From Squalus acanthias (Eukaryota), in NCBI GenBank assembly GCA_030390025.1, contig CM059431.1:121832001-121896000 (forward strand): DNA of 64,000 bases, written 5' to 3'. The notes under the pieces are model-generated. The model ran no database searches, was not told where the DNA came from, and worked only from the letters and a program-made list of their open reading frames with translations. This document shows positions 22,372 through 42,347 of this stretch, one piece after another; the first letter of the stretch is position 1, and the number at the start of each line of letters is the position of its first letter. A program made the translations under genes and the position numbers.

Positions 22372-23991
22372 GAAAAGATACAAATATTGCACTTTCAAAT
22401 CCCTGCTCAATGAAACTCAATAATTTTGATGTGCCAGAACACTCGTTGAAATGCAAAACGCGCAAATCATTTAAAAGGCCACTTTGCCTCTGTGATATTA
22501 ACAATGCGGCATTGTTGGCCAACGAAAAGTACACCGGAAGTAGACGCCTTTAAATGGCGCTCCTCCAGTGGACATCCGACTGAAAGCCTCCTCCTCTACC
22601 TGTCGTTGTTAACGACAGGCGCACAAGCAGGGGGTGAGAGGGAATTTTTCATCCAGGGCGCAACCAGGGCGCTGTGCATGGCAATGACATCACAATCTCC
22701 GGGCGCAGGAAATCGGAGCGCAACATCTTACTGCTGCCACAAAACTCCCGTCGAATTTAGCGGGAGGCGTTGATATCGTCGCGCCCGATCGCAAACCCAT
22801 TTGCGCTCCCGGAGGCATTAACGGTGAAGGGATAATTACAAGTCCTAGCCCTTCTCGGGCTACCCCAGATCAGGCGTATTCCCCAGACGTTCCCCTTCAA
22901 CTAAAGTTAGAGATAGCCGAATCCTATAAGACGCTTAATTGGGTCTAAAGGTTCAGACTATCTCTCCCTAAAGGAAAGAAATGACTTGAAGATATTACTG
23001 TCTTCCAGATAGCACTTTTAAGAAGTTTAACTAGACTTTAACCTTCGGATATTATGAGGGTCCGGAAACCCCCCCAGAATTCTGCAACTCCTCACAAAAG
23101 AGTGTACAGAGATTGAGTTTGCGAGGTTGATACAGAAATTACTCTGTGAGACAATTGTAAAAATATGCAGATTTATTACGGAACCGACATTTAGTTAACA
23201 GTTGGTGAGTCAATCGCAACTTTAACAGTTCAAAATACAAATAGCTTACAATTCTATTCTCAGAGATCCTTATTCTCAAATCTTTTTTTTGCTTTTTTGC
23301 AGCGCACAAAATGGCCGGCCAGCTGCCGCCACCAGAATTATCTTGCAAATGAGAAAAAAACAAGACCTTTCGACAGATGATTGCAAATGTTCGTGGAAAC
23401 CTTGTTGCTTCTGGTAGCAAAGTGAAGCACCCTTGATCACCTGTCGCCTGCCGCAGGGTCTGCTGCTGCTACTGCGGGTACACCACCTCCTCCCGATACC
23501 TGGGCGCGGAGGTGCCGGGAGAGTTGGTGCACCTGCAGTCAATAGTATCCGAGACCCCGCGTTTTCTCATTTCGAACGGCGATCGCTCAAAAAGTCGCCC
23601 CGGCGCGGTAACACAGCCTGGCCTCGTCACTGGCAGCTTGCAACTCACCATTAATGCCATTACCATCCGACAAGGGTTAGGGGGCAAATGATACCCAGTG
23701 CCGCCTCATCCAGTCCTCCTAAAAAAAAGACTCTTTACAGTTTTATTTTCTAGCCAAAACACGCATTTAGGAAATGGGATTCTCACATCCCGAGATTTTC
23801 TACTGCATTAAATTAAACACATCAAATGACATTGGACACGACTGCTTTCTGGGGTGGAACAGTTTGGAATCCCAAACCACTCCGTTTGGAGCTTTGAATA
23901 TATTGTGATTCACCTTTCTAATCATCATCCAGCTCAGAACATTTCCATTCAGTACATGTGTTTCCACGATTTGAAATTTTCCTACCGCCAC

Positions 23992-24327: not shown

Positions 24328-24614
24328 AACTTTGTTACATTTTTACATTTCTAAGTCTTATTCTTAATCCAGAATATCCACCAAAATCAAATAAAAGTAC
24401 CGTTTGATCCCCGAGACTCTAAGAGTTAAAAACTTACAGAGCCTGCCTCTGAAGCTGAGAATCGCCTGCCCGTTCCAGCGACTTCTGACTTCCTATCTGA
24501 AAATCCCATATCTTATACTCTTTTTGCAGTGGTATCCCCTTTGAAGTTTTCTGCTGATGTAAGCTAATTATCTTTAGTCATTCTTTCTGTTGACTTCTTT
24601 CTATTCTTACCATT

Positions 24615-26280
24615 TGTAGAATTCGCAATATATCGCGATTTTATTAATAAGGAGAAAACACAGAGTTTCGTTCAAACAGCTTTTATTTCAGTAGAATGCT
24701 GGCAGGTTTAAAGTGGACACAAGCAGCCTGTAAAATGGCCGCCGCACCTCGTGACAGAACATTCTAGACTTTTCAACAGGCAGACAAGATGGCGTTCCAA
24801 TAAACATTTGTGCAAGATCGATTAAGATTCAGCACAGTGAAGATAATACACGAGACATTATGGGTTTGCAGTATACACATAGATACTGAAATCGGTCTCC
24901 CAGGTACAAAGGAAAGCCATTGTACCGAGTAATCAAGGGCCCATCCAAAAGACATTAATATGTAAAATCCCAACGACTCTACGATGAGAGAGCCGTTAGC
25001 AGGTAGTTATACAGGACACTTGGAAGCCCCAAACCCCTCCAGGGAGATTACCGACCGATTTAACAATGGGAGAAATATTAACAGGTACTCAGACATTTAC
25101 GAGTAGCCCCGAAACCCATTAAGAACGGAGATCACCCATACAAGACATTTGAGCGCCAAACCCTAAACAAAAGAATGGACATTATAGTTGGGCGGGAAAC
25201 GGAAGATTTTGCACTATAATTGCAGGCTCCAAACTGTCCATTCTTTCTCTTGCTGCTCTTATCATCGTGGCTGCTCCTGTGCTCTTATCCGGTCGATTCG
25301 TAACCTCGTGGCTGCTCCTGTGTACTCGTAGTTGGGCTCGCTCCTGCTTGCCTGTTGCCTCTTCTGAAAAGACTGTTGAACTTTCTGATCCGTTCGGATC
25401 TATCTCGTGTCGCGTAACGAAGACCTATATTGGTAACCGGTATCGGAACCAAAAGGCCCGAGAAGAGATGAGATGAGATGAGATGAGAAGAGAGGAAGAC
25501 CATATCCATCGCCATGGTCAGTAAATCCCGACCGCGCCTGTAGGTCGATTAGCCAAGTTTTCCTCGCCAGGAAGACTTCTTCGAACTTGCAAGGAAACAT
25601 ATCGTATCGACGATATCGACAACTGTGCTCGAAGAGTACCTGTTAAACCAACCAATATAGATCTTCATCACAGCAGACGTTCCAGCCTGCTAGCCGGAGC
25701 AGCAGAAGCAAGTAAACAAGTGGGACCAGGAGATCTCCTGACCGACACGTGGGTGCTGCGGTGAAAAGCATCCGATCAGCTATTCGGAATTTCTCCGAGT
25801 TATCACGAGTGGTGAGCATGAGTCTCGAAATCCTACGAATCTAGTTTAGGATAGATATTGATAGGGGAGGGTTTAAGGATTAAGGATATTTGTAATGTGT
25901 GCCCCTATTTACTTTGTGCCGTTCGTTCCTCGTTTCCCTAAGATCGACTATATAACTGTTTGTAAGATTGTACTGTCATTAATCTGTGCTTATGACATGT
26001 ATTTCATAATCTTAAGTATCATGCAATAAAGATTTTCCATTTCGTACCATTCAAACCAAGTCTACATGAGTTTCATCTCCATTACTGCTCTCGCATCTAA
26101 GTCCAGTGTCTAGAACCGTAAGGGAGAGTGATTCGAACCACTCACAGGTGTGTCTAGTGTTCCCAGACTGGCTGGAGACCAGAACAGGCAACAAGGCCTA
26201 GACCCGCACTGACATACAGGCTGCACAGAGCCGCGTGAATCTCACAGGCTGCGAGACACGCAGGGTCAGAATCCCTTACA
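24615..26280 (+). repeat. 5' LTR (1666 bp)
   Basis: TGTAGAATTC...CCCTTACA, a direct repeat of 35709-37374. TATA-like TATAAT at 25215 and AATAAA at 26025. Confidence 0.97.
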
Positions 26281-26284
26281 GAAA

Positions 26285-28096
26285 ATGGCGACCGCGGCAG
26301 GACACTGGCAGCGAGAGGGTAGTGTGTTAGATTTTGGAATGACTGTACGAAATGTTATGCAGGAAAAGATAGCGGATTATGTGTTTGGAAAGGTTAATCT
26401 AACTAAGAAATGGATAAGTGAATTGTTAGCGGATAAGAGCCCACTAGAGGCAGCTGAAAGGTGGACAGATAGTAAAGAACATAGAAAGACACTTGAGAAA
26501 GCAGTCTGGCTTATGTGTTACAAAAGGCAGGTTCAGATTTCAAACCAGACCATTACAGCGCTAGTAGCTCGAATCAGTCATTTAGAGGGAGAAATGGAGG
26601 AGAAGGTTTCTGGAGGGGAGGTGCTCATTAAGAATTTAAATGAGTTACACCAAGAAAGCCAGGAAGTCTCCAGTCACCTTAAAACAAGGATAGATTATCT
26701 CGAGTGCCAGGTCACTGAGGCAAAATTGAATGAGAGCAGGTTAAAGGAAAGATGTAACCGCCAAGCTGCCCAGATAAGAACTCAAGAAGAGAGCTTGACG
26801 GGGGTTAGGGCGGCATATAAGTTGGCCCTTGAGGATAAGTTTCAGGGAGCCGATCATAGCGCCTGCCAAAGGGAGATAGAGCACCTCAAAAAGGCCGTGA
26901 ACAATGCGAACGGCATGGTGTGCCTTATCAATCCGTCGGCGCACCAGCCGCTAGTAAATGAGAGATTTAGAAAATCCCCACCAAGTAAAGCAGAAGGAGT
27001 AGTAGTCACTGCGCCCTCCGCGCCACCCAGCTATTCAGAAACCTGGGTTAGGGAGGAAGCAATGGAAGAAACAAAAGAGCCCATTGAAAAAGAAGTAGGA
27101 AAGGGATCGTTATATCCAGTAACGGATATTAAAAGGGGCCCAAGCAGAAACGGTGGGGAAGAACCGGGGGATCTCCTCGGACAGCTGGTGTTGCCTCACA
27201 GTTCACATCAGCTGAGAGCTATGATAAATCACGTACGGAAGCTGACCGAGGCAGACGACCCTTCCGTACATTTCAGAGAAGTTGAGCAAGCCGCAGCCAT
27301 TAACGGCTGCGATGATGGGGAAACAGCAAAAATGCTGCTGTTCTCATTAGACAGCTCGGTCCTTCAGTGTCTCTCAGGCGAGAGCAAGAGGGGAACCAAG
27401 AGTTATGAGGAATTAAAGAATGAGGTCCTGGAAGTGTTGGGGGCGAACGACGAAGGTCCGTTTGCTAGAGTGGGACAGACAGTGCAGATGGAGGGAGAAC
27501 CCCCGAAGGTTTTTGCCGACAGGCTGTGGCCAGTATATGAGCGCAGCTGTCTAGGTGCGCCCGAGCGCGAAGATGTGGAAGGTTTAGCTTTAACTCATTG
27601 GCTTAGGTGCATAATAGCCAACAGTTTACCAGCCGTCAGAGAGCAGGCAAAAGCATGGTTTGATCCCAATGACCCCAACATTACGGAAGAGTCGGTCTTG
27701 AATCGACTCACGTTAGGTTATCGCAATATAAGGGGTATGGCAACACGTCCCCTTAAGGGAAGAGTACATGAGGTACGACCCGCAGCCCCGTATCAAAGAG
27801 AGTGGCATCAGGAGGGTAATCGCGCCCCACAGGCAGGTAATGCTTGTTACGGGTGTGGGAAGACAGGGCACTGGCGCAAGCATTGCAGGAACCCTTGGAA
27901 GGATTCCAAGGATAAAAATCCCGCGGTCCGAGCCCAGGCGCCTGTCCCGGCTAAGGAAGCCAAGGCACCCACCCCTCCTGACGACCTCGAAGCAGTGTTA
28001 GGAGCCATGCGCAAGCTGGTCTTGAATGCGCGTGGACAGGTGGCGGTCGCAACCGGCCCCGTAGGTGCCGCAGGACCGTCTAATAGTACCCCATGA
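26285..28096 (+). CDS. gag: Gag polyprotein (coiled coil, late domains, capsid-like region, CCHC nucleocapsid); true start may be the ATG at 26340
   Basis: 603-aa ORF immediately after the LTR. CYGCGKTGHWRKHC zinc knuckle. QMEGEPPKVFADRL resembles a major homology region. Confidence 0.9.
   Translation: MATAAGHWQREGSVLDFGMTVRNVMQEKIADYVFGKVNLTKKWISELLADKSPLEAAERWTDSKEHRKTLEKAVWLMCYKRQVQISNQTITALVARISHLEGEMEEKVSGGEVLIKNLNELHQESQEVSSHLKTRIDYLECQVTEAKLNESRLKERCNRQAAQIRTQEESLTGVRAAYKLALEDKFQGADHSACQREIEHLKKAVNNANGMVCLINPSAHQPLVNERFRKSPPSKAEGVVVTAPSAPPSYSETWVREEAMEETKEPIEKEVGKGSLYPVTDIKRGPSRNGGEEPGDLLGQLVLPHSSHQLRAMINHVRKLTEADDPSVHFREVEQAAAINGCDDGETAKMLLFSLDSSVLQCLSGESKRGTKSYEELKNEVLEVLGANDEGPFARVGQTVQMEGEPPKVFADRLWPVYERSCLGAPEREDVEGLALTHWLRCIIANSLPAVREQAKAWFDPNDPNITEESVLNRLTLGYRNIRGMATRPLKGRVHEVRPAAPYQREWHQEGNRAPQAGNACYGCGKTGHWRKHCRNPWKDSKDKNPAVRAQAPVPAKEAKAPTPPDDLEAVLGAMRKLVLNARGQVAVATGPVGAAGPSNSTP
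26286..26303 (+). promoter_or_regulatory. Primer-binding site (tRNA-Ser-like, imperfect)
   Basis: TGGCGACCGCGGCAGGAC begins 5 nt after the LTR. It resembles the complement of tRNA-Ser 3' ends (TGGCG...GGCAGGA). Confidence 0.65.
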
Positions 28097-31000
28097 CTAG
28101 AACCGGCGCAGCCCGTCTACCTGTGTCCGCTTAGCTATGACGCGTGGAGGCGACCTGTGGTGGAGATGGAGGTAGAGAAACAGAAGGGTAGTTATTTGTT
28201 GGACACGGGAGCTTCTTGCACCATAATCCATACAGATAACCCTTTCGACTCGCCGCTATCTACCAAGGTCCCATTCACGTTAGCAGGGTTCACAGGAAAA
28301 GAACAGGCTGGCACGTTTTCCCTTCCGCTATCCATTCGTTTAGGAACACTTCGCCTTAAGTGGAAGTGTATACTGATGGCATGGCAAAAGGGGGGTGGAA
28401 GAGGTATCCTCGGGTCCGATCTCCTAGCGGGACACGGGATCCTCGTGGACCTCAGAAATCACTGTCTCTGGGGGGCTAAAGGTGAAAAAGGCGAGGTAAT
28501 AGTGATTCCGGGGGAGGAAGAAACAGGGGTCCTGTGTACCGTACAGCCATCCGGAGGCTACGACCTCAGGCTTATGGTCGCAGATGTCCCAACGGACATG
28601 CAAACGTACGTGTCAGATAATATGCACGCGTTTGCAACCCACAAGCACGATTGTGGGAGAGTGGTCGGGTTTGAGGTCAGCGTAGATGGGGACCCCATGA
28701 CCCGACCCCAAAAGCAGTATAACTTCCCCAAAGAAGCAGAACCCGATATGGAGACAGCAATGTCCTCCTTGGTGCAGCAGGGCGTGTTGAGGCCAATAGC
28801 CACACACGTAAACTCCCCATTATGGCCGGTTAGGAAGCCGGATAATTCGTGGAGGGCCACGGTGGACTACAGAGTCCTTAACAGTAACATTCCCGCCTGC
28901 GCGCCCACAGTAGCAGCAGTTGCTGACCTAATAGGGAGCATCCCAGCGTCCGCGACCACGTTCACGGTGCTGGATATCTCGAACGGTTTTTGGTCCATCC
29001 CGCTGCGGCGAGAGGACCAGTACAAGTTTGCCTTTACTTTCAAAGGACAACAGTACACATGGAACTGTCTGCCACAGGGTTTCCACAATAGCCCCAGTAT
29101 TTTTCATCAGTGTATGGCAGGAAGTTTAAAGGAGTTTAGTCAGCCCAATCAGATAGTACAGTATGTGGATGATTTGCTCCTATTTACGGACTCAAGGGAG
29201 GAGCACGGACCACTACTGGACGAGTTATTGGAGCTGTTAGCGAGAAAGGGTTTTAAAATAAACCCTAAGAAAGCACGTATCGGTCAGCGGGAAGTAAAGT
29301 TCCTGGGACTGACCATACGCGCTGGGGAAAGAGCCATAGACAAAGCAAGGAGGGAGTCGGTGCAAGAATTACCGATTCCCAACAACGTAAGGGGTGTGAG
29401 GTCCTTCTTGGGACTGACCGGTTACTGCAGGGATTTTATCGAAGATTATGCGGCCACAGCGGCGCCGCTCCTCCGACTCCTCCATAAGGGGGTGGAGTGG
29501 CTTTGGGACGAGGGCTGCCAAGCAGCCTTCGAGAAGTTAAAAAGGGATCTGCAGACCGCGCCAGCCTTAGGGGCCATAGATGGGGGGAAGGAGTTTTTCC
29601 TGGAGGTCGCTGCCAGCGGAGACAGCTTAAGCGCCGTGCTGCTCCAAGAGCGTCACGGCAAGCTGAGGCCGGTTGTCTATTCATCCAGGGTATTAACGGA
29701 TGTGGAGAGAAGTTTCTCCAATTGCGAAAGGCACCTTTTAGCCACGCATTGGGCTGTGAAAAGATCAGCGATCTTCACAGGGCTCTCTCCCATCACTCTC
29801 CTCACACATCACACACCAACTAAGATGCTTCTGGATGGGAGGATTAAAGACGGGACCGTAAGCAGCGCACGCATTGCGCGTTGGACCCTTCTTCTCTCCC
29901 AGTTGGATCTTAGAGTAAAAGGTCTTTGCGAGCCAAGGCTTGCGGCCAATCTGGTATACCCCGGTACAGCCCACCGGTGTTCGGTGGAAGGGGTGTGGGA
30001 CGTCAACATAGGTTTACGGGCCGGGATACATCCCACTGGGCGCGAGATTTATGTTGATGGGTCTAGCACAGTATCTGCTGGCGAGCGACTCACAGGGTGT
30101 GGAGTTTATGACCCTGCGGCAGACCTTGCCCTGGCGATCAAGCTCCCCAGCACTATGAGCGCGCAGCAAGCCGAGCTGTCTGCCGTGGTGTACGTTGTGA
30201 CCCACCCAGACATTTTCCCAACCCCATATACGATTTGCTCGGACAGTATGTTCACCTGCAATTCGTGTACGGAATACCTGGCCATTTGGTCCCGCCGCGG
30301 ATACACCTCCGCGGACGGGCGACCTTTGACGGTGAAGCCCTTGCTGGAAAAGATCTTAGCAGCAGCGGTGGGGGAGGAAGGAGAGATTTTCATCCATAAG
30401 GTGAAAGCTCACTCCTCCACAGAGCCCCGTGGGGAGGGCAACCGGCAGGCGGATGCGCTAGCCAGGGAGGGTGCCCGCGACGGCACTTTCTGGAACCCCT
30501 ATAGGACCGGACCCATAGCAGCGGTCCGAGGCGGGGACGGGATTCCCGGGAACACCAGGGTAGCATTGCCCCTAGACCTCAAGACCGTCCAAACCCAGGA
30601 TCCCGCCCTAAAAGCAGTCCTAAAAACGATTGCTGAAGGGAGGCAGGTAGAAGGTCCGTACAGTACGGCAACCCTCTCAGTTAAGGAAGGCATGCTGTTC
30701 CGCGAGGAGCAGTGGGTTGTGCCACAGCAGCACAGGAGGGAATTCCTCCAGTTGGCTCACGAGGGACCAGGGGCAGGGCACCCCGGGCCCGAGGTTACCT
30801 GGCAACGGGTAGAGCAAGCGGGATGGTGGCCAGGGCTCAGGGAACAAGTCCGCGAGTTCTGTGCAAACTGTCTTGTGTGCGCTGCAAACAACCCAGACCC
30901 CCAGAAAAGGAAGGTGCCCATGGGACACGTAAGAAGGGTAGAGGGACCATGGCAGTCGATACAGATCGACTATATAGGACCCCTGCCCACCACCCAGGGA

Positions 31001-32593
31001 GGTTATAAGTACTGCCTCGTCCTGGTGGATGTGTTTTCCAAGTGGGTGGAAGCCTTCCCTTGTCGAACAGCTACGGCACTGGGTACAGCAAAAATCTTGG
31101 TCCGGGAAGTGTTCTCGCGGTGGGGACTCCCCCGTTTTGTGGAGTCAGACCAAGGGAGTCATTTCACCGGCCAGGTGATGCAGAACACCCTCATGCTTTT
31201 GGGCATTGAAGGGAAGTGGCACGTAGCACACAATCCCCAGTCATCCGGGATTGTTGAACGTATGAACCGGACCCTGAAGGAGAAATTGAGGAAAGAGACT
31301 AGGAACTCGCCCCAAAAATGGGCGGAAGTTCTGCCTTTAGTCCTCATGGGGGTCCGGGCCAGTCAGTCAAAAAGTACGGGGTACTCCCCGCACGAGGTAA
31401 TGACTGGGAGGCTCATGCGAACCCCCACCCATGTGCTAGCACCGGTGCTCACTGAGGGTCAGCTCCAAGAGATAAGCAGGGACAAGTTCGCCCAGACTCT
31501 CTTGGAGCGCCTGAAGCAAGTTTATGAGCAGGCGGCTGGGAACATGGGAAGGCAGCATCAGGGCAATCGCTTGTTGCTGGAACCCCGCAAAACGCGGGAG
31601 TGGGAAGTAGGAGACCAGGTCATGGTCAGAAACTATGCCAGAGTAGGGAGTCTGGAACCACTGTATATGGGACCCTACAACATTGTAGACAAGGCGAGTC
31701 CCATGGTTTACGCCGTAAAAGTACCTCGGCGCACTAAGTGGTTCCACATAAACCAATGCAAACTGTACCAGCCAGGTGCGCAGGGGAAAACTACAGGGGT
31801 AAATCCCGCCAATGGGAAAGCACAGCCCCAGGTAGGACCACAAGGCACACAGGCAGGCATAGCAGCTTGCATCAGGGGAAGGGACATCCCGGACGATCAT
31901 GCAGCGTTTTTCTGGAATTGGGGGTTAGATGAGGAAGAATTCAGGGTACCCGGGTCAGATGAGGATAGTGCAGATGAGGATAGTGATGACGACGGGTGGT
32001 TTCGGAGGAACGGTCCCTTTTACGATATGGAGGGGACGGGGGCTGCAGGTAGAGATCCACACAGGGTGGATACACGAGCTGCAGGTCCCGAAGACAGGAG
32101 GGAGGAGCTAGAGGAGGCAGGGCCAGCCGCTATGGGAGCACAGAGAGTACCGGTGTGGCTCCCAGAGATGTGGCCGCCCGCTTTGAACGTCCAGTCCTCA
32201 GGGGAGGCAGAGATCACGAGTGAAGGGCCGCCTGCTGGGCCGAGCAGGGCGGAGCCACGAACTGCCAGCCCCGAGGTTAGGGAGGCGGAGTCAGCGGAGG
32301 CGGAGCCAGCGACTGTGATGGAACCCCAGGTCATCCCGATGGAAGTCTCGGAACCCGGTCCGTCCGTCACGGAAACCCCGCCCATAGCAACTCCCCGTAG
32401 GTCAAGTAGAGAACCCCAGCCCAGGAGGATGTGGTCATGTCCCCAGACTGCCCCAAGGCGAAAATTTAAGGTTAAGATAACCCAGATACAGACCGGCCAC
32501 ATCGCAGCAGTAACAGGCTGCGGCAGATCAGAGGGAAGGGTCAGTGCCCTCCCACCGTCGGGAAGAGCTCGCAGCAGCCTTCTCAGAATTTAA
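28097..32593 (+). CDS. pol: Pol: protease, RT, tether, RNase H, integrase and C-terminal extension; in frame with gag
   Basis: LLDTGAS; LPQGF and YVDD; IYVDGSS..AQQAEL..SDS..GNRQAD; H-H-C-C, QIDYIGP/SDQG/VERMN and GPY module. No stop from 28097 to the end. Confidence 0.95.
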   Translation, partial: LEPAQPVYLCPLSYDAWRRPVVEMEVEKQKGSYLLDTGASCTIIHTDNPFDSPLSTKVPFTLAGFTGKEQAGTFSLPLSIRLGTLRLKWKCILMAWQKGGGRGILGSDLLAGHGILVDLRNHCLWGAKGEKGEVIVIPGEEETGVLCTVQPSGGYDLRLMVADVPTDMQTYVSDNMHAFATHKHDCGRVVGFEVSVDGDPMTRPQKQYNFPKEAEPDMETAMSSLVQQGVLRPIATHVNSPLWPVRKPDNSWRATVDYRVLNSNIPACAPTVAAVADLIGSIPASATTFTVLDISNGFWSIPLRREDQYKFAFTFKGQQYTWNCLPQGFHNSPSIFHQCMAGSLKEFSQPNQIVQYVDDLLLFTDSREEHGPLLDELLELLARKGFKINPKKARIGQREVKFLGLTIRAGERAIDKARRESVQELPIPNNVRGVRSFLGLTGYCRDFIEDYAATAAPLLRLLHKGVEWLWDEGCQAAFEKLKRDLQTAPALGAIDGGKEFFLEVAASGDSLSAVLLQERHGKLRPVVYSSRVLTDVERSFSNCERHLLATHWAVKRSAIFTGLSPITLLTHHTPTKMLLDGRIKDGTVSSARIARWTLLLSQLDLRVKGLCEPRLAANLVYPGTAHRCSVEGVWDVNIGLRAGIHPTGREIYVDGSSTVSAGERLTGCGVYDPAADLALAIKLPSTMSAQQAELSAVVYVVTHPDIFPTPYTICSDSMFTCNSCTEYLAIWSRRGYTSADGRPLTVKPLLEKILAAAVGEEGEIFIHKVKAHSSTEPRGEGNRQADALAREGARDGTFWNPYRTGPIAAVRGGDGIPGNTRVALPLDLKTVQTQDPALKAVLKTIAEGRQVEGPYSTATLSVKEGMLFREEQWVVPQQHRREFLQLAHEGPGAGHPGPEVTWQRVEQAGWWPGLREQVREFCANCLVCAANNPDPQKRKVPMGHVRRVEGPWQSIQIDYIGPLPTTQGGYKYCLVLVDVFSKWVEAFPCRTATALGTAKILVREVFSRWGLPRFVESDQGSHFTGQVMQNTLMLLGIEGKWHVAHNPQSSGIVERMNRTLKEKLRKETRNSPQKWAEVLPLVLMGVRASQSKSTGYSPHEVMTGRLMRTPTHVLAPVLTEGQLQEISRDKFAQTLLERLKQVYEQAAGNMGRQHQGNRLLLEPRKTREWEVGDQVMVRNYARVGSLEPLYMGPYNIVDKASPMVYAVKVPRRTKWFHINQCKLYQPGAQGKTTGVNPANGKAQPQVGPQGTQAGIAACIRGRDIPDDHAAFFWNWGLDEEEFRVPGSDEDSADEDSDDDGWFRRNGPFYDMEGTGAAGRDPHRVDTRAAGPEDRREELEEAGPAAMGAQRVPVWLPEMWPPALNVQSSGEAEITSEGPPAGPSRAEPRTASPEVREAESAEAEPATVMEPQVIPMEVSEPGPSVTETPPIATPRRSSREPQPRRMWSCPQTAPRRKFKVKITQIQTGHIAAVTGCGRSEGRVSALPPSGRARSSLLRI

Positions 32594-32905
32594 AGGGGCC
32601 GCCCTGAGAACGGGCGGCACTGTAAAGTTATAGTTCTAAGTTTTAAGTTTATCGTTCAAGGTTAAGTTTTAAGTTTATAGTTCAAGGTTAAGTTTATAGT
32701 TTTATTAAGGTTAAGTTTGTAGTGTTTTTAACAGAAAACGATAAAATGATGGGAGCTTTAAAGATAGGTTTAGTGAAAAGTTTATACAGCAAACGTGGAA
32801 GTTTACGTGAGGCGAGGTCAGGGGACCCGCTCACCCTTCACAGAAGCCAGAGACTCTTGCGAGGCTGGCTACCTCATTCTATCTGATCACAGGAACCAAG
32901 GAAGG

Positions 32906-35257
32906 ATGGAACGAATTCTAGTATTGCTCGTGGCAATCGGATGTGGATTGGCCTATCGAGGCCGCACCAAGGATGTCGTGGTGTTTGGATGTTCCGGGGA
33001 CACGGCCCCCATCGCGGTGGATGGGACCGGAAGACGGGAGGCAGAGGAGACCAGCACCTATTTCCACAAGGGAAGGTGGCCAGGATGGCTGGGAACGAAC
33101 TCAACGGAGTATTCCAGCACATCGGGGTTTGCCTACAAAGAGACTTCTTTACTGTGCCCCAAAGTAAGGATCATCGCACCCAGGATCAGCGTCACCGTCG
33201 GCAAACGGATTTGTTTGACTTGTAGTGGGAAGGTCCCATTGAGCCGATGGTGGTGGCTGCGAAAGCTGAGCAAAACTATGAGGAACTCTTCGGTCGAGTG
33301 GGAACGACTGGGTAATAATACCCATCGGACAATTACGGGGACAGACGGACAAGTGAAAGTCTGTTGGGACAAATGGTGGGAACCGGATGAGGGAATTTAT
33401 GTATGTATGTGGGGGTCAAAGTACGTTTGCCCCAAAGGCATCTCCATATTTTTTATTAATCAATGGCAGGATAACGGACAGGGGATGAGGTGGGATGCGA
33501 GCACCAGGGGGTGCGGAGCCCCATTCTCCCCGATCCCAGTAAATGCCACTGAGCTCATTACGCGCCCACGCAAAGCCCCGCCCACGATTCCGGTGGTTCT
33601 AGCTGAGGAAGAAGGGTGCCCTAAAACTAGTAAGGGACCCGGGAATGGTTTGGTACTGGTCCCCACAGACCAGATACTATTTCAGGGGGTACATTACGCG
33701 GTGGCCTCGGTGATTTTAAATCTCACCGAGGTGCGGTTACCAGAGTGGTGCCCCAAAAAGACGGAACAGTTGTACCAGGTCCTGTTGACCAAGATGTTCA
33801 GACAATTTTACGAATTCGATTTCGCGGAAATTGATAAAACAAGTTTGTACACCGCACCACAGGAAGTTTTGGATCAAGTAGGGAGGCAAAGAAGGGGTTT
33901 GGTGAACGATGCGTTCACTGCTTTTAACACAGGTACATCTGTGGTCAACGCTCTAGACAGTGTGGAGCTGCAGACCCAGATTAATGGTTTAAAGACACAA
34001 TTAAAGGACATTCTAACAGATGAGAATAAAGTGGTAGGGTCGGGTCTACACGAGGACCAAGCCATGACCCTCCATTTAAAGGAAATTATAGCAGAGTTGG
34101 AGAAACATGCAAAGACGGTAAATGCCCTGATTAGGGAAGATCGGAATGCATCCGATCAAGCTGCGCAGAACGAGGTGTGCGTGCTTTACGGGGCGTGGTT
34201 ACTGGGCGAGGGCCGCAGTAATTTGGAGGATTTAAAACAAGGTTTGGTTCCGTCCTGGATAAGTAACAAACACCTGCGGGAGCTCCACCCTTTTCAGAAC
34301 GCATTAAGTCCATGCCAGCTCAGGCTAGCTTCAGAAGCATACCCAGTCCCCGTGGACTGCGGACGTTCAAACCATACTATTATGGGAATAGTATTACGTA
34401 TGCCGGTTTTGGGCGACACAGCAAAGCCCGCCCCGGTGTATCGGGTAGAGAACATTGGTGTCATTCAGGGGGGAGCCCACATTCGTTATGCAGCGGTTCC
34501 ACCTTACGTCATCCGCTGGGAGCAAACGATGACAGGTACAGATCTCTCTGGTTGTCGTGGCAGGGGAGCACACATAATACTGTGCCCCCAGCACTTGAAT
34601 GCCTTTTTAACACCACAGTGCGGGTTCAGAACGACTGGCGCCAAGTCCATGAATTGCACCATGGAGGCAATGGCACAAGATCATGTGCCTCCGCAGGTAG
34701 CATACATCGGGGGTGGAACATATTGTGTTACCACTGCAGCGCAACACTACCAGCATGGAAACCGTAGCCGGTGTCCGGTGAGTGACAGCAGTTTCTGTTT
34801 TAAACCCAGGGCGGAAGTTCAAGTAGCACAACAGCGAATTATCCCAATCCCTGAACCATCCACTGTTCATCTCACAGTAAAAGAGAATTTCACCGACTTG
34901 CAGCGATTCGTCGCGCATTTTGGATACCTCATTCCCCCTCTCCCTGAACACCTCACCAAACTTCTAAAAGCCGTCGCGGTGTCACAGAAACATTTTTACA
35001 CATTAGAGCAGAAAACTGTCGAAATAGGAACAGACATTCTGGATATAGTAGTTCCACCGTGGTGGAATCTGTTCACTAATATTGAAGTACCTTCATGGAT
35101 CAGAATAGCCTCCCACATTTTAGTCGTATGCCAAGTTTTCATTGTAGTGTACCTATTGGTTGTACATTGTAAAAGAGACAAACGCCTCACCAAGCATGAA
35201 AACACGGGAGAGTGGCGAGAACGTTACGTGCGCGTGCACGATGAGAGCACCGTGTAA
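32906..35257 (+). CDS. env: Envelope glycoprotein (783 aa): signal peptide, Ig-like domain, RQRR cleavage site, class I fusion subunit, TM anchor
   Basis: MERILVLLVAIGCGLA signal, several NxS/T sequons, RQRR|GLVNDAFTAF, heptad repeat, Cys-rich region and TM ILVVCQVFIVVYLLVV. Splice acceptor CACAG ends at 32892. Confidence 0.88.
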   Translation: MERILVLLVAIGCGLAYRGRTKDVVVFGCSGDTAPIAVDGTGRREAEETSTYFHKGRWPGWLGTNSTEYSSTSGFAYKETSLLCPKVRIIAPRISVTVGKRICLTCSGKVPLSRWWWLRKLSKTMRNSSVEWERLGNNTHRTITGTDGQVKVCWDKWWEPDEGIYVCMWGSKYVCPKGISIFFINQWQDNGQGMRWDASTRGCGAPFSPIPVNATELITRPRKAPPTIPVVLAEEEGCPKTSKGPGNGLVLVPTDQILFQGVHYAVASVILNLTEVRLPEWCPKKTEQLYQVLLTKMFRQFYEFDFAEIDKTSLYTAPQEVLDQVGRQRRGLVNDAFTAFNTGTSVVNALDSVELQTQINGLKTQLKDILTDENKVVGSGLHEDQAMTLHLKEIIAELEKHAKTVNALIREDRNASDQAAQNEVCVLYGAWLLGEGRSNLEDLKQGLVPSWISNKHLRELHPFQNALSPCQLRLASEAYPVPVDCGRSNHTIMGIVLRMPVLGDTAKPAPVYRVENIGVIQGGAHIRYAAVPPYVIRWEQTMTGTDLSGCRGRGAHIILCPQHLNAFLTPQCGFRTTGAKSMNCTMEAMAQDHVPPQVAYIGGGTYCVTTAAQHYQHGNRSRCPVSDSSFCFKPRAEVQVAQQRIIPIPEPSTVHLTVKENFTDLQRFVAHFGYLIPPLPEHLTKLLKAVAVSQKHFYTLEQKTVEIGTDILDIVVPPWWNLFTNIEVPSWIRIASHILVVCQVFIVVYLLVVHCKRDKRLTKHENTGEWRERYVRVHDESTV

Positions 35258-35696
35258 TCGGAAAATGGCGTCACTCCCGCTCGCCACGTGCGCCGCGGAA
35301 GCCTGTACTCATATAAGATTTTCAGAGATTGTAAATACGTTGGGAACTCGACATGTTTTAAGAGTTGGTGTTGATTATTTTATGGTGATGGTGTTACAGT
35401 TAGAATTGATTGTTTGGTTTTGGGTTCTGTTTCTCCTTTCCCTGAATAAAAGATGAATATACAGGTGATACGAGAGGCATCGGCCTGGTTACGCCGGGAA
35501 GGAAAACAAGTGGTGTAAGTTTAAGGGCAAATAATGCCTACGGTGATATAAAATGTAATTTCTTGGGAAATGAGGACGACACAGAGACCCTAGCTAGGTT
35601 AAAGTTATGGGATTAATTTGCTGGATTCGGGGAAAAATCGAGATAATATTGCTCACCACTATGATTTTTGATACGATAAGCGGAGTTATTCGCATC

Positions 35697-35708
35697 AACA
35701 GGAGGGAC
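35697..35708 (+). promoter_or_regulatory. Polypurine tract
   Basis: AACAGGAGGGAC lies directly before the TG of the 3' LTR. Confidence 0.7.
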
Positions 35709-37374
35709 TGTAGAATTCGCAATATATCGCGATTTTATTAATAAGGAGAAAACACAGAGTTTCGTTCAAACAGCTTTTATTTCAGTAGAATGCTGGCAGG
35801 TTTAAAGTGGACACAAGCAGCCTGTAAAATGGCCGCCGCACCTCGTGACAGAACATTCTAGACTTTTCAACAGGCAGACAAGATGGCGTTCCAATAAACA
35901 TTTGTGCAAGATCGATTAAGATTCAGCACAGTGAAGATAATACACGAGACATTATGGGTTTGCAGTATACACATAGATACTGAAATCGGTCTCCCAGGTA
36001 CAAAGGAAAGCCATTGTACCGAGTAATCAAGGGCCCATCCAAAAGACATTAATATGTAAAATCCCAACGACTCTACGATGAGAGAGCCGTTAGCAGGTAG
36101 TTATACAGGACACTTGGAAGCCCCAAACCCCTCCAGGGAGATTACCGACCGATTTAACAATGGGAGAAATATTAACAGGTACTCAGACATTTACGAGTAG
36201 CCCCGAAACCCATTAAGAACGGAGATCACCCATACAAGACATTTGAGCGCCAAACCCTAAACAAAAGAATGGACATTATAGTTGGGCGGGAAACGGAAGA
36301 TTTTGCACTATAATTGCAGGCTCCAAACCGTCCATTCTTTCTCTTGCTGCTCTTATCATCGTGGCTGCTCCTGTGCTCTTATCCGGTCGATTCGTAACCT
36401 CGTGGCTGCTCCTGTGTACTCGTAGTTGGGCTCGCTCCTGCTTGCCTGTTGCCTCTTCTGAAAAGACTGTTGAACTTTCTGATCCGTTCGGATCTATCTC
36501 GTGTCGCGTAACGAAGACCTATATTGGTAACCGGTATCGGAACCAAAAGGCCCGAGAAGAGATGAGATGAGATGAGATGAGAAGAGAGGAAGACCATATC
36601 CATCGCCACGGTCAGTAAATCCCGACCGCGCCTGTAGGTCGATTAGCCAAGTTTTCCTCGCCAGGAAGACTTCTTCGAACTTGCAAGGAAACATATCGTA
36701 TCGACGATATCGACAACTGTGCTCGAAGAGTACCTGTTAAACCAACCAATATAGATCTTCATCACAGCAGACGTTCCAGCCTGCTAGCCGGAGCAGCAGA
36801 AGCAAGTAAACAAGTGGGACCAGGAGATCTCCTGACCGACACGTGGGTGCTGCGGTGAAAAACATCCGATCAGCTATTCGGAATTTCTTCGAGTTATCAC
36901 GAGTGGTGAGCATGAGTCTCGAAATCCTACGAATCTAGTTTAGGATAGATATTGATAGGGGAGGGTTTAAGGATTAAGGATATTTGTAATGTGTGCCCCT
37001 ATTTACTTTGTGCCGTTCGTTCCTCGTTTCCCTAAGATCGACTATATAACTGTTTGTAAGATTGTACTGTCATTAATCTGTGCTTATGACATGTATTTCA
37101 TAATCTTAAGTATCATGCAATAAAGATTTTCCATTTCGTACCATTCAAACCAAGTCTACATGAGTTTCATCTCCATTACTGCTCTCGCATCTAAGTCCAG
37201 TGTCTAGAACCGTAAGGGAGAGTGATTCGAACCACTCACAGGTGTGTCTAGTGTTCCCAGACTGGCTGGAGACCAGAACAGGCAACAAGGCCTAGACCCG
37301 CACTGACATACAGGCTGCACAGAGCCGCGTGAATCTCACAGGCTGCGAGACACGCAGGGTCAGAATCCCTTACA
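35709..37374 (+). repeat. 3' LTR (1666 bp)
   Basis: Direct repeat of the 5' LTR, with four transitions seen by eye. Followed by CATT. Confidence 0.97.
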
Positions 37375-38110
37375 CATTAGTTCAGCTGCTAACTCTCAGA
37401 ATCCTGTCTGCTGTATAGGTGTTTAATAACTTATCATATAAAATGTTATTACAGATTTATCTCTTTGATGCCATTCTTATGAAGGTCTTCAATTCAATTC
37501 TTAATATCCCCTTAACTGGTTATAAGCAGACGTTATGTCTACTAACTGTTCCATTTTCAATGCAAACACAATGTGATTGCTTGGTGTCATCTTCAAAGTG
37601 TTCTGTAGGTATTATATTTACAATATGTAAATCAAAACCACTTCAACCAGGGTGTTCCATGCATTTCTTAGCTACTTCAATTGGTTGTATTTATAATTGT
37701 GTTTCCCTTTTCATTTGATGTTACTTTTACAAAGGCACATGGTTTTTTAATGTTCTGTGTTTCTGTTCGAAGTGTTATTTTTAGCACTTTAAACTGGGTA
37801 TAGCATTGTGTTGGTTCCAAACTGCAGACTCCTTGGAAGAAAGCCTTTGCTTCTTCGATAGGACCATTGTCTCAGTGTCAATAACCATTTCCCATTTCAA
37901 AAGCTTGTATGGTGTCTACAGCTTTGTGTCAACAAGCTCATCTTATCTCAGAAGCCTGTATTTACAGCTTTGTGTCATTGAGGCTTTTAGATTTTTAAAC
38001 CCAGTTTGTCATATTTTAATGTCAGAATTCTGTTCATAGGATGGTGTATTTTTCTGAAATATGGCTATTCCTTTACAACGGGAGGCGCAAAGGAGCCCAA
38101 TATTTAGCCC

Positions 38111-38326: not shown

Positions 38327-38629
38327 AATCAGGATGACGATGCAGCTCGGGAACCACGTCTGTCAACGTGAGGCGGAAGCTCAGTGGCCATGTGCGAGGT
38401 CATTCATGCAGAGCATGGAAATCCCAATAAATGCATCCACATGACAGCTGCTTACTTGCCTAAAGGAAAAGCTCTTTCTGAGTGCATTTTCAGCACAGAT
38501 TTAGGTCTCTAGAGTTTGCAAGTCTTTTCTGTAACTTTGGAAGCCACTCTCACCACATTGCTAGTAACTATCACAACATTGACAGATTGCTCCTCTGATC
38601 TCTACTTGAACTACCATCTATTACATCAG

Positions 38630-39851
38630 CATAGGTACCACTTATAATGTCTCATCTTGGTCCTCAGAATCGAACCAGGATGAGCCACAACACCAGCAGC
38701 AGCAGCAACAACAACACCAAAAACCTTCTCCTCAACAACCTGATGCTCCACAGGACAGAGGGCATCAGCGCAGGGCTGCACCGCACCAGAGGCGATACCT
38801 CCAACACAGGGTATATAGGCAGAGGATGAGCTTCCTGGACATGACTGAGCAGCAGTGCCAAAGGAGGCTCAGGCTATTGCGCCTTGTCATTGTAGATATT
38901 TGCAGTTTGCTGGAGCAAGACTTCCAGCCCAGAGGACCTGATGGACATGCCTTACCAGTGGCTGTCAAGTCACCAACACACTCAACTTCTTCGCCTCAGG
39001 CTCCTTCCAGTGATCTACGGCAGACATTTGCTGCATCTCGCAGTCGGTCATCCACAAATGCATCACACAGGTCACTGATGACGTGTTTAACAAGTCAGCC
39101 AATTATGTGAACTTTGCCACTGATGAAGCCAGTGTTACTGAGAATGCGCTCGCCTGTGCTGCTCTGGCTGGCTTCCCACGGGTGCAGGGCATCATCAACT
39201 GCACACATGTGGCCATCAGGGCACCCCATCATCACCCAGGAGTGTTTGTTAACCGCAAGGGCCTCCACTCCCTCAATGTGCAACTCGTCTCCAACAACAG
39301 GAAGATCATCATGTATGTGAATGCCAAATTCCTTGGCAGCTGTCATGACTCTTTTGTCCTGCGCCTGTCCACCCTCCCTCAGTTCTTTGCACCTGCCAAA
39401 CACACAAACTGGCTGGCTGCTTGGAGACAAGGGCTATCCACTGAAGATATGGCTCATGACACTCTTGAGAAGGCCAAGCAATGAGGCTCAGGAGCGCTAT
39501 AATGAAAGCCACATGTCCACCAGATGTGCCATAGAGCAAACAATAGGCATGCTGAAGATGCGCTTCAGATGCCTTGACCGATCTGGAGGAGCTCTTCAGT
39601 ACGCAACAGCCAGGGTCTCCAGAATCATCGTTGTTTGTTGCGTGCTGCACAACATAGTGCAGCAACGAGGATTAGCGCTGCATGAGGAGCAAGGCGCAGA
39701 ACGGACAGCCTCTTCAGAGGAGGAGGAGGAACATCAGCTGGAAGATGAAGAGGTGGAGCAGGAGAAATCTGGGGTCCACATGCCAGGAGTACCGGAGCAC
39801 ATTGCTGCCCAGGAGGCTAGGGATGACCTCATCATGGCTAGATTTACTTAA
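38630..39851 (+). pseudogene. Harbinger transposase, frameshifted
   Basis: [47 protein letters not shown] and CCVLHN spread across three frames. Confidence 0.9.
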
Positions 39852-40150
39852 CTTCCTGCATTGCACCCTTATGGCTGCCACATGCTGTGCCAGGTTCCCC
39901 CCCTCCCCCCACCCACTACAAACAACACCATAAAGGATCCCTACAATGACCAAGCCATTTCTTTCACAGTAACACCCATTGCTGGAGGTAATGTTATGTC
40001 TCACCATTCACTTCAACTCACTAAGCCACTTCCAAAGTAGCAGACAAAAATGGGCATGACCGGAACGTGGTGAAAATAAATACTTTTATATCTGTCATAA
40101 CAGTAATGGAACCTTAATAATAACACACCCATCTGTTAACTCTTGTGAAT

Positions 40151-42053
40151 CTACTTCTGTGTCATTTTTCTGTTCCTCGTGCGTCTATGAGGTGCAACCC
40201 CTGTGGCTTCAGCAGAGGTAGAGGCAGACTGCTCACTTCCCTGCTGCGACTGCGTAAACACTTTTGGTGGACGTCCTCTGGGTTTTGGAGTCTGTGATGG
40301 CCCCGCCAAAGTCTGCTGCTCCTGCGACTGTGCAGGGGCAGATTCAGCCATCGCGATCTGTGGAGGCAAATAGGGCTCTGACTGGGGGGGGGGGGTGGGG
40401 TGCAATGGGGGACAAGTGTGAGCGCTTTGAGAGGAGCCCCCACTTCCATGTCCCCTCTCAGAATCATCCCTCTCATGGGCCACCCGCACTTCCCTGCTAG
40501 CAAGAAGTTGGAGAGCACCTTGCTGCACAGCAGTGGGACCATGAGGACACAAGTCTACCTTTACATCCCTCCTAGAGAGGAGGTCTATGAGCCTCTGCCA
40601 TCTGTTGTCCATAGATAGCATGTGCTCATGTGAGTGGCGCATTAGCTGCTCCATGCAGGTGGCCATCCTTTCCATGGAAGAGTACACCATCGCCACCGCC
40701 TGTGAGATGGTGATGTTCATGTTGGAGATGGACTCCTCCATTCTCTGCACATTTTCAGACATGGCGTCTGCAAAACCTGTCAGAGCCTCCTGCATTTCTT
40801 GCTGCCCCTCCAGGATCGCCCTCTTTCTGGATGGCCCCTGAGGCTCAGTATCTGCATGTAGCTGAGCAGAAACTAGGAGTGTCCTGCGCCCTCCGGCAAG
40901 GAGTCTCCACTGTTGTTCCTGTTAACACCACCTGCTCTTGCTCACTTGTGACTTGTGAGACATCAGGTGACAAAACTATTCTATCTTGCATAGGCCATAC
41001 CGAGGCGTGTGTATCTGCGCTGGTGCTGGGTGCATTTTGGTCTGCTGACGGTGCACCCTCAGAGGCTGGAGGCTCCTCTGAGGAGTCGTCTTCCTCCTCC
41101 GGCTGGACAGTGGCGGGGGCGGGGGGCAAGGGGGGGCGCATTGGGGCTCTTGATGGACCAGTGGGAGAGTAAAGAGATGATTTAGAACTGTTATGTTAAG
41201 AATGGGTAATGATACCATTATGCACATGATGAACATTCACTGGCTGCTGACATCAGTCACCATATGAGTGACTGATGTATGCCATGTGGCTGTATGAGAT
41301 GTAATTCTGTTACCCGGTTGCTGAGAGGTCCCCCTCTCCCATCTCCCACCAGCCGCTCTGTAACTCCTGAGACCTCCAGGGCCACCTTCTCTGCTGCAGT
41401 TAAAGTGCTGAAGGATGGAGGGCCACCTCCGGTTCTCTCCCTCTCCCTGTTGTTGTGTGCTCTCTTCTCCTACTAGGAGGGAAAGAAGAGAAGTTTGAGT
41501 GAGAGAGGTGGCATGAGTGTAAGGATTATGTGGGTTACATCTGTAGAGGGTGACTATGAGGGAGTGGTGTGCCAATGCCAAATGGCCTCCTTCTGTGGTG
41601 TTAGTTGGTATGATTGTATTAGGATGAAGGTGAGTGTGAGTGATGGCTAGTCAGATGGGGATGTGAGTATGTAGATAGAGAGAGAGGGATGCGTGGACGT
41701 GCAAGGTATATTGGTGTGAGTAAGGATGTGCAGGAGCAGGCTTGGGAAGGTAGAGTGATGGGGATGTGATGAAAGGCACAGCAGGATGAAGTTGAGTGTG
41801 GCTTTGTACTCACCGTTCCTGATCTAATGAGATAATTGAAGCATTTCTGGCACTGCACCCAGGTCCCCCTCACCACATCTCTGCTGTTCACCTCCTCAGC
41901 TATTTGGAGACAGGCTCTTTTTGTCTCTTGGGAAGGTCGCTTCCACCCATTAGCAGGGAAGAGGACCTCCCTGCGTGCTCTGACTCCCTCTACAAGAATA
42001 TGTAGAAAGTCTTCGGAAAAGCTGGGTGCAGCCCTCTGTCTTTGGGAAGTCAT
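40151..42053 (-). pseudogene. Harbinger Myb/SANT-like gene (spliced, decayed)
   Basis: RAAPSFSEDFLHILVEGV...QIAEEV...WVQCQKCFNYL. Minus-strand GTGAGT donor at ~41812. C-terminal STSAEATG..RRTR motif shared with the other two copies. Confidence 0.75.
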
Positions 42054-42347
42054 GTTTAGTAATCTCAGCAATAACAAGATCCTCCAATATATTCCCTCCA
42101 CACTCCTAGATGAAACTTCAAATGCAATGTGGCGAAGGCTGCTTTAAATATCCCCGCTGGAAATGAGTCATCGATGATGTCATCAGACCCGTACCATTTA
42201 ATATGTCCGGGAAACATGCAAGTCTGCCTTAATAGGGGCCATGAACTGAAAGTCACTCTGAGGTGCGGGCTGATCAATACATCACGGTACCGACCCGACA
42301 CACGATCCGCACGCACCTGACCTGACCCGGTAAAGAAAATTCCAGCC

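What the first reader, a model, noticed from the sequence alone, without database searches (positions are those of the whole stretch)
33640..35257. Env fusion subunit looks paramyxo/pneumovirus-F-like rather than retroviral TM
Seen: furin site RQRR at 33884-33895 and a fusion-peptide-like GLVNDAFTAFNTGTSVVNAL. A long heptad region follows, then a Cys-rich beta-type stretch (DLSGC..ILCPQ..QCGF..NCT..TYCVT..CPV..FCF), a second heptad and the TM. The post-cleavage subunit is about 450 aa and has no gamma-type CX6CC or immunosuppressive motif. Known: this spacing is typical of F1 subunits. Inference: the fusogen is shared with negative-strand RNA viruses.
Basis: partly seen in the sequence, partly recalled or inferred. 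Interest (0 to 1): 0.72.

Follow-up and report, generated by a model that had tools for sequence, protein, structure and literature searches.

The report
Shark retrovirus with F-type envelope
A very young, intact, many-copy retrovirus fossil, likely in a shark or ray genome, carries an envelope protein predicted to fold like the fusion proteins of measles- and RSV-type viruses; this fold was already known from two other retrovirus groups, and this third, likely early-branching lineage suggests it may be the original retroviral entry machine.

Summary
Observation confirmed: RQRR at 33884-33895, a 453-aa post-cleavage subunit, all listed Cys motifs, no CX6CC or immunosuppressive motif. The gene is env (783 aa) of an intact provirus at 24615-37374 (1666-bp LTRs differing at 4 sites, 4-bp TSD, tRNA-Arg PBS). 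An alignment-based AlphaFold model (pLDDT 68) matches RSV and parainfluenza F best (Foldseek E 2.5e-11; VIA Z up to 12.9), and also foamy Env (Z 8.5), baculovirus F and lispivirus glycoproteins. So the fold is class Ib, but a specific link to negative-strand viruses is not shown (identity 6-17%). F-like retroviral Env is published for lokiretroviruses and foamy viruses. This element is neither: its RT lies among canonical retroviruses (100/97), in a shark-frog-coelacanth clade that branches early with moderate support. Env adds a probable Ig-like head and is under purifying selection among copies (pN/pS 0.23), which suggests recent spread by infection. The scan already reported this family from other copies in the same genome. 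New variant of a known kind.

The parts
24611..24614 (+). 5' target-site duplication CATT
24615..26280 (+). 5' LTR, 1666 bp, TG...CA
   Evidence: 99.76% identical to the 3' LTR, 4 transitions
26286..26303 (+). Primer-binding site, 18 of 18 complementary to the 3' end of host tRNA-Arg(TCG) plus CCA; overlaps the first gag ATG
   Evidence: window sequence; 429 matches of the tRNA 3' pattern in G000, 0 for the control; ARAGORN calls tRNA-Arg(TCG) at 2 of 2 loci scanned
26285..28096 (+). gag (603 aa from the first ATG), one CX2CX4HX4C knuckle, ends in TGA followed by CTAG in frame with pol
   Evidence: zf-CCHC only E 0.3, below cut-off; readthrough inferred from the type II UGA-CUA context listed in PMC13517186
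28097..32593 (+). pol: protease, RT (YVDD), tether, second RNase H, integrase with GPY motif, then an acidic/Pro-rich tail of about 270 aa
   Evidence: Pfam RVP (just under its cut-off), RVT_1, RT_RNaseH, RNase_H, Integrase_H2C2, rve; sequence
32906..35257 (+). env, 783 aa, intact
32906..32962 (+). signal-peptide-like hydrophobic N-terminus
   Evidence: hydropathy 1.35 over aa 1-19
33167..33406 (+). probable Ig-like domain (about aa 88-167) inside the N-terminal extension, candidate receptor-binding head
   Evidence: weak: Pfam Ig_3 E 0.45; Atlas feature hits to V-set/Ig clusters 0.89-0.92 with recognition below the tool's threshold; not folded
33641..33883 (+). F2-equivalent segment (two long strands, helix, conserved Cys282)
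   Evidence: model residues from 1 align with F residues from about 26-39; C282 in 11 of 12 rows
33884..33895 (+). furin-type cleavage site RQRR
   Evidence: R327 16 of 18, R330 14 of 18 rows
33896..33955 (+). putative fusion peptide
   Evidence: position after the cleavage site; moderate hydrophobicity; inferred
33959..34237 (+). HRA, long helical/heptad region
   Evidence: heptad scan; helices at aa 331-376 and 383-444 in the model, partly low pLDDT
34385..34840 (+). Cys-rich beta region (F domains I/II equivalent)
   Evidence: pLDDT 70-95 by blocks of ten; structural matches
34946..35029 (+). HRB helix (aa 681-708)
   Evidence: helix in the model, pLDDT about 50
35093..35167 (+). transmembrane anchor, followed by a short cytoplasmic tail
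   Evidence: hydropathy up to 2.27
35701..35708 (+). short purine-rich tract before the 3' LTR (PPT candidate)
   Evidence: sequence; inferred
35709..37374 (+). 3' LTR
37375..37378 (+). 3' target-site duplication CATT

Best explanation
This is the intact env gene of a very young, many-copy endogenous retrovirus, likely of a shark or ray, and its product is predicted to be a class Ib (paramyxovirus-F-type) fusion protein that likely carries its own Ig-like receptor-binding head. Shown: provirus anatomy, cleavage motif, conserved cysteines, a predicted fold matching F, RT placement outside lokiretroviruses and foamy viruses, and purifying selection among copies. Inferred from how F proteins work: the precursor trimerises and is cut by furin after RQRR. 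The N-terminal part (head plus F2 segment) would stay tied to the fusion subunit, probably by a C282-C425 disulfide. Receptor binding or low pH would let HRA extend and drive the fusion peptide into the target membrane, and HRB would then zip back into a six-helix bundle. The fold is most likely inherited from an ancient F-type fusogen shared with loki, foamy, gypsy and baculovirus envelopes, not recently taken from a paramyxovirus. The family likely spread by reinfection.
For: Fold: model pLDDT 68 from 33 sequences; Foldseek PDB best hits RSV F and hPIV3 F, 250 matches at E<=0.001; VIA over 48,161 chains NDV F Z 11.2 (rmsd 22, 339 aligned) and foamy Env Z 8.5 and 8.0, best unrelated row Z 6.8; Nipah F Z 12.4, rmsd 5.0, 290 aligned. 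Family: env relatives in skate, sawshark, several sharks and two frogs, frog P0016 20% over 526 columns, E 3e-31. Lineage: RT inside canonical retroviruses (100/97; 100/99), loki-motif rows a separate clade (99/99); joining with loki rejected on RT+tether (p-AU 0.006). Linkage: of 8 divergent env-anchored loci of G000 (env 23-27% identical to this one), 6 have the same type of RT upstream and 7 a clear integrase. Activity: LTRs differ at 4 of 1666 sites; 150 of 150 scored places are 99-100% identical over 167 aa; 14 of 20 fetched copies (the window's own included) have an open env frame; outside the query segment 104 synonymous against 60 non-synonymous variant codons in 19 copies, pN/pS 0.23, and 0.09 for variants shared by two or more copies.
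Against: No sequence-level hit to Pfam Fusion_gly or to PDB F proteins, even with a profile. TM-scores are 0.24-0.42 and whole-chain rmsd is large; 144 of 538 residues have pLDDT under 50, including the cleavage region, part of HRA and HRB. The single-sequence model was poor (pLDDT 39). On RT alone, joining the lineage with loki was not always rejected (p-AU 0.049, 0.129 and 0.026 for three groupings), and joining it with SnRV was not rejected (p 0.119). The Ig-like head rests on weak scores. The copies used for pN/pS were the top hits, variants were counted against the window copy and not on a tree, and gag/pol were not run as a control. Fusion activity and the disulfide are untested.
Confidence: 0.8

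Rival explanations
1. The element is a lokiretrovirus (the first in a cartilaginous fish) or their direct sister, so the F-like Env is the published loki Env.
For: Dual RNase H, R-X-K/R-R site and F-like Env are loki features (PMC7947760). The integrase is 39-43% identical to loki-motif rows against 35% to the SnRV-like row. By eye the F2 start and the Cys-rich part resemble the loki Env sequences in the supplement. One AU test on RT alone did not reject a sister position (p 0.129).
Against: The RT has LPQGF and QYVDD where loki RTs have (C/T)PFGY and IYVDD. RT identity is 33-39% to loki-motif rows against 45% to the SnRV-like row. Trees separate them; p-AU 0.006 on RT+tether. The four complete loki Envs I read lack a 245-aa head. 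The integrase tree is unresolved.
Confidence: 0.08
2. A canonical (SnRV/OVEX1-like) retrovirus captured its env separately, from a negative-strand RNA virus or from a lokiretrovirus, so the F-like fold says nothing about the retroviral ancestor.
For: The best PDB matches are paramyxo/pneumovirus F, above foamy Env; the best named BFVD matches are negative-strand virus glycoproteins. Env swaps are common in retroviruses (established knowledge; also PMC2717909, passages).
Against: Identity to all of these is 6-17%. The PDB holds many F entries and few foamy Env entries. The fold also occurs in baculovirus, gypsy, foamy and apparently epsilonretrovirus envelopes. The env family is old and stays with one pol type across 23-27% env identity and has frog members. 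Any capture would have to be ancient.
Confidence: 0.3
3. The structural match reflects generic long helices, and the protein is not homologous to F.
For: Low TM-scores, high whole-chain rmsd, no Pfam Fusion_gly hit.
Against: Matches cover model residues 1-406, including the well-predicted beta region, with 270-380 aligned residues, while plain coiled coils in the same list align 46-114. The order cleavage-FP-HRA-Cys-HRB-TM matches, and a separate feature search also returns F-type families.
Confidence: 0.03

Closest known systems
Lokiretrovirus Env (Wang and Han, PMC7947760; parts 1-3 of 4 of the main text, supplement parts 1 and 68 and searched passages read)
   Same: F-like Env with signal peptide, basic cleavage site, fusion peptide, coiled coil, TM; dual RNase H; young insertions in aquatic vertebrates.
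   Different: RT is canonical-type and outside the loki clade; Env has an extra 245-aa head; loki was found in 0 of 6 chondrichthyan genomes.
Foamy virus Env (Fernandez et al., PMC11468914; passages and section 10 read)
   Same: Class Ib core shared with paramyxo/pneumovirus F; VIA Z 8.5 and 8.0 to 8rm1 and 8rm0.
   Different: Foamy Env has its receptor-binding domain inserted between the subunits; here the extra domain is N-terminal, like the arrangement the paper gives for coronavirus spike. Gag has a Zn knuckle and is in frame with pol; RT is 34-36% identical to foamy-like RTs of the same genome and does not group with them.
Paramyxovirus/pneumovirus F (RSV, hPIV3, NDV, henipavirus)
   Same: Best solved-structure matches; F2-cleavage-FP-HRA-Cys-rich-HRB-TM order.
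   Different: 6-17% identity, no PF00523 hit; carries a probable head domain, which F lacks; encoded by a retrovirus.
Snakehead retrovirus, CmiERV lineage I, OVEX1/SpeV/CrocERV37-39 (PMC4422223 part 1 of 2; PMC6001957, PMC2717909, PMC4299795 passages)
   Same: Canonical-type RT outside classes I and II, 45% identical to the SnRV-like row; Chong et al. note Zn finger and GPY motifs in such unclassified ERVs; OVEX1 ORF3 also lacks CX6CC and the immunosuppressive motif.
   Different: No supported clade with SnRV in my trees (not rejected either); the integrase does not group with SnRV; SnRV reads through UAG, this element has UGA. OVEX1, ERV4 and CmiERV sequences were not in my trees; their Env folds are untested.
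Errantivirus (Ty3/gypsy) F-type Env and baculovirus F (bioRxiv 10.1101/2023.10.26.564294, passages)
   Same: F-type ectodomain; top Atlas feature hits and BFVD hits.
   Different: Pol here has a second RNase H and a retroviral RT, far from gypsy rows in all trees.

Membership tests
Class Ib fusion proteins (F-type) | Shared three-domain core fold with paramyxo/pneumovirus F, both subunits contributing | tested here: met
   Predicted model only: Foldseek E 2.5e-11, VIA Z 9-13 over 270-380 residues, F2 and F1 both aligned
Class Ib fusion proteins (F-type) | Cleavage site followed by fusion peptide, HRA, Cys-rich region, HRB, TM | tested here: met
   HRB rests on a low-confidence helix
Class Ib fusion proteins (F-type) | Sequence match to Pfam Fusion_gly PF00523 | tested here: not met
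   no hit for the query or for any of 33 alignment members at E<=1 among the 25 of 37 families shown; one relative has a sub-threshold Baculo_F hit, E 0.0011
Class Ib fusion proteins (F-type) | Trimer that fuses membranes | not testable with these tools
   the ectodomain trimer exceeds the complex tool's size limit; no assay
Gamma-type retroviral Env (class Ia) | Short TM subunit with immunosuppressive motif and CX6CC | tested here: not met
   453-aa subunit, motifs absent; 0 of 33 rows with CX6CC/CX7CC
Lokiretroviruses | RT falls in the loki clade, sister to canonical retroviruses | tested here: not met
   loki rows labelled by motif match to the published alignment, not by database name; tests on RT alone were weaker
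Lokiretroviruses | Dual RNase H | tested here: met
   (shared with all retroviruses)
Lokiretroviruses | F-like Env | tested here: met
   no direct computed comparison with loki Env was possible
Lokiretroviruses | Integrase related to CGIN1/NYNRIN | tested here: inconclusive
   nearest Pol relatives are labelled NYNRIN-like, IN 39-43% to loki rows, tree unresolved
Spumaretroviruses (foamy) | RT groups with foamy RTs | tested here: not met
   with foamy-like RTs taken from G000
Spumaretroviruses (foamy) | Gag without Cys-His box, Pol expressed apart from Gag (recalled) | tested here: not met
   CCHC knuckle and in-frame gag-TGA-pol
SnRV-related / clade Huo ERVs | RT clusters with snakehead retrovirus and class III ERVs | tested here: inconclusive
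   not recovered in the trees, not rejected (p 0.119)
OVEX1 / ERV4 lineages | RT phylogenetic position | not tested
   no reference rows; ERV4 traits (5-bp TSD, no Zn finger, no GPY) do not fit this element

The most novel reading that the evidence does not exclude
This shark-frog-coelacanth lineage is the earliest branch of canonical retroviruses and is still spreading by infection. With loki, foamy and apparently epsilonretrovirus envelopes it shows that an F-type (class Ib) fusogen was the ancestral Env of all retroviruses, later replaced by the gamma/beta-type Env. That contradicts the independent-acquisition scenario preferred in PMC9040795.
Probability: 0.3. Interest if true: 0.75.

Novelty: new variant of a known kind. 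Interest (0 to 1): 0.5.

Why it matters
The origin of retroviral Env is an open question: Wang and Han list four scenarios and could exclude none (PMC7947760). A third retroviral lineage with an F-type Env, on a canonical RT that branches near the base, shifts weight towards an ancestral F-type Env. It also gives an intact, compact Env with a probable N-terminal head for structural work, between headless F and foamy Env. The young, conserved, abundant copies suggest a recent wave of germline infection in a cartilaginous fish. The core idea, a retroviral Env homologous to paramyxovirus F, is not new.

Tried and rejected
Sequence searches for F homology gave nothing: Pfam, PDB phmmer, PDB with profile A1 (best E 0.023, a weak C-terminal match to a HERV-K chain). 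The single-sequence fold was unusable. The viral-contig search did not run with the alignment. RT against phage records gave no match and was irrelevant. None of the 120 Pol relatives carries an env part, so env-pol linkage in frogs and coelacanth could not be tested. Expression: no RNA holder listed; the one raw RNA run laid 0 reads, which is no test, and two contig sets of uncertain type cover all 30 bins but may be DNA. The RNA after the gag stop folds only slightly better than shuffles (z -1.5, 12 of 200 as good), so no readthrough structure is claimed. SnRV Env is not among the 50 BFVD rows shown, which is inconclusive. No complex was predicted. Two recalled papers, a 2024 foamy virus cryo-EM study and a 2022 survey of anamniote Env, were not held and may already cover this Env type. 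PMC9447858, PMC13709493, 10.1101/2023.10.17.562709 and 10.1101/2024.03.17.585361 (passages) added nothing on this Env. My first guess, lokiretrovirus, was rejected; my second, SnRV-like, is not supported as a clade.

Full report
Observation. The interval lies in a stop-free ORF, 32777-35257 (+), 783 aa from the ATG at 32906. The heptad scan finds aa 352-379 and 384-411 only; the second heptad shows as a low-confidence helix in the model. The fusion peptide is moderately hydrophobic.

Context. The gene is env of a complete provirus: 1666-bp LTRs at 24615-26280 and 35709-37374 with 4 transitions, TSD CATT, and an 18-base PBS matching host tRNA-Arg(TCG). gag has one CCHC knuckle and ends in TGA-CTAG in frame with pol; pol has protease, RT, tether, a second RNase H and integrase. 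With the two rates used in PMC4422223 the LTR distance gives 0.5 to 5.5 My. In G000 (3.7 Gb), 150 of 150 scored places are 99-100% identical over a 167-aa env segment; 7269 candidates were seen, which is not a copy number. Of 20 fetched top copies, 14 (the window's own included) have an open env frame and 6 are broken. The host is probably a shark or ray: the nearest named env relative is from a skate (76%), the next from a sawshark.

Fold. Sequence methods do not find F. A full-library search gave 44 hits at E<=0.001. Of the 10 I looked up, 6 are from sharks, 2 from frogs and 2 unnamed. I aligned the query with 31 of the 44 plus one further cluster member, leaving out fused, very short or unrelated rows (A1). 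The model of aa 246-783 has mean pLDDT 68 and pTM 0.49, with the beta region at 70-95 and 144 residues under 50. Foldseek on PDB lists only paramyxo- and pneumovirus F in the 38 rows shown (best E 2.5e-11, TM 0.24-0.41). VIA over 48,161 chains ranks F proteins 1-9 (Z 8.8-11.2) and foamy Env 10-11 (Z 8.5, 8.0), with the best unrelated row at 6.8; the second look gives Z up to 12.9 and, for Nipah F, 290 residues at rmsd 5.0. BFVD returns lispi/arlivirus, fish filovirus, baculovirus F, paramyxovirus F, torovirus spike, WEHV1 Env (rank 24), feline foamy Env (45) and WDSV Env (46). The Atlas puts gypsy Env/Baculo_F clusters first and Fusion_gly clusters next, with recognition below its threshold. 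The fold class is thus well supported; a special tie to negative-strand viruses is not. The N-terminal extension gives weak Ig signals and was not folded.

Lineage. The closest Pol relatives are an unnamed 90% match and frog and coelacanth proteins at about 50%. The published alignment shows loki RTs with (C/T)PFGY and IYVDD, while this RT has LPQGF and QYVDD and shares a 10-residue motif with SnRV. I labelled four database rows as loki and one as SnRV by these motifs, and took foamy-like RTs from G000. A quick tree of all 121 rows and careful trees of hand-picked subsets of 40, 45 and 43 rows agree: loki is one clade, and the element lies in canonical retroviruses (99/98, 100/97, 100/99). In the 45-row tree it sits in an 11-row shark-frog-coelacanth clade (96/98). 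All other canonical rows form a clade without it at 86/81 and 89/91, which is suggestive and below the starred level. AU tests against loki gave p 0.049, 0.129 and 0.026 on RT and 0.006 on RT+tether; against SnRV 0.119. The integrase is more like loki rows (39-43%) than SnRV (35%), but its tree is unresolved. Alpha, beta, delta, lenti, Odin, OVEX1 and ERV4 references were absent. Of 8 divergent env-anchored loci in G000, 6 have this RT type and 7 a clear integrase upstream, so the env-pol pairing is old.

Selection. Across 19 copies and outside the segment used to pick them, variant codons are 104 synonymous to 60 non-synonymous (pN/pS 0.23). Shared variants give 58 to 13, and 40 to 2 in the fusion subunit; the head is less constrained (0.52 overall). 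By the usual argument (recalled), purifying selection on env implies spread by reinfection. The sample is biased to top hits and has no gag/pol control.

Mechanism. Shown: anatomy, motifs, predicted fold, lineage, selection. Inferred from F biology: trimer, furin cleavage, a C282-C425 link between subunits (C282 in 11 of 12 rows, C425 in 20 of 22), HRA extension, HRB zippering, and receptor binding by the Ig-like head.

Known work. F-like Env is reported for lokiretroviruses, which were found in 0 of 6 chondrichthyan genomes (PMC7947760), shown structurally for foamy Env (PMC11468914) and widespread in gypsy elements (10.1101/2023.10.26.564294). PMC9040795 prefers independent Env gains. SnRV-related ERVs are known in elephant shark, and OVEX1/SnRV-related ERVs remain unclassified. 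Nine searches found no paper describing an F-type Env on this lineage; two relevant recalled papers were not held, the loki supplement was cut at 300 of 318 pages, and bioRxiv supplements were not seen. The scan itself reported this family before: 14 notes hold my search words, and the 8 shown are from this genome. They agree with my reading but are not independent support; a sequence look-up found none.

Verdict. Real, F-type fold well supported, concept known, lineage and head domain apparently undescribed: new variant of a known kind, interest 0.5.

Noticed in passing
BFVD rows Q9WHI8 and A4GTG3: Walleye epsilonretrovirus Envs (WEHV1 E 3.8e-8 over 591 columns; WDSV E 6e-5) match the F-type model, hinting that epsilon Env is also class Ib. 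The matched region was not examined.
   Followed up: no
window 26281-26303: The first in-frame gag ATG has a strong start context and overlaps the PBS, only 4 bases after the 5' LTR; the LTR-PBS spacer is 5 bases.
   Followed up: partly
window 28094-28100: gag ends in TGA-CTAG, the alphavirus-type (type II) readthrough context; the review passages read list other contexts for fish and frog retroviruses.
   Followed up: partly
window about 31790-32593: Pol continues about 270 aa past the integrase as an acidic, Pro-rich tail; a short run of T-rich repeats follows before env (32620-32720).
   Followed up: no
G000, hits; L031-L036, L041, L042: Several older, more divergent families with the same Env type and the same Pol type exist in this genome; at least one copy has a stop-free env frame of 784 aa.
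   Followed up: partly
L037-L039: Foamy-like endogenous elements in the same genome (PF03539 hits at 49 places), two with stop-free RT.
   Followed up: partly
G000:C26, about 39.0-42.2 Mb: Long tandem arrays (about 1.62-kb period) holding the tRNA-Arg(TCG) 3' sequence, i.e. the likely primer tRNA is highly amplified.
   Followed up: no
window 21304-22416 (-) and 38600-42150: Degraded transposase-like ORFs (Harbinger-like by recall, not searched) flank the provirus; short SINE-like repeats with near-perfect hairpins at 46624-46909 and 52275-52677.
   Followed up: no
P0002, P0003, P0032: Env pieces are fused to host gene models (Niban-like, zinc-finger, F-box) in databases; these could be annotation artefacts or captured exons.
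   Followed up: no
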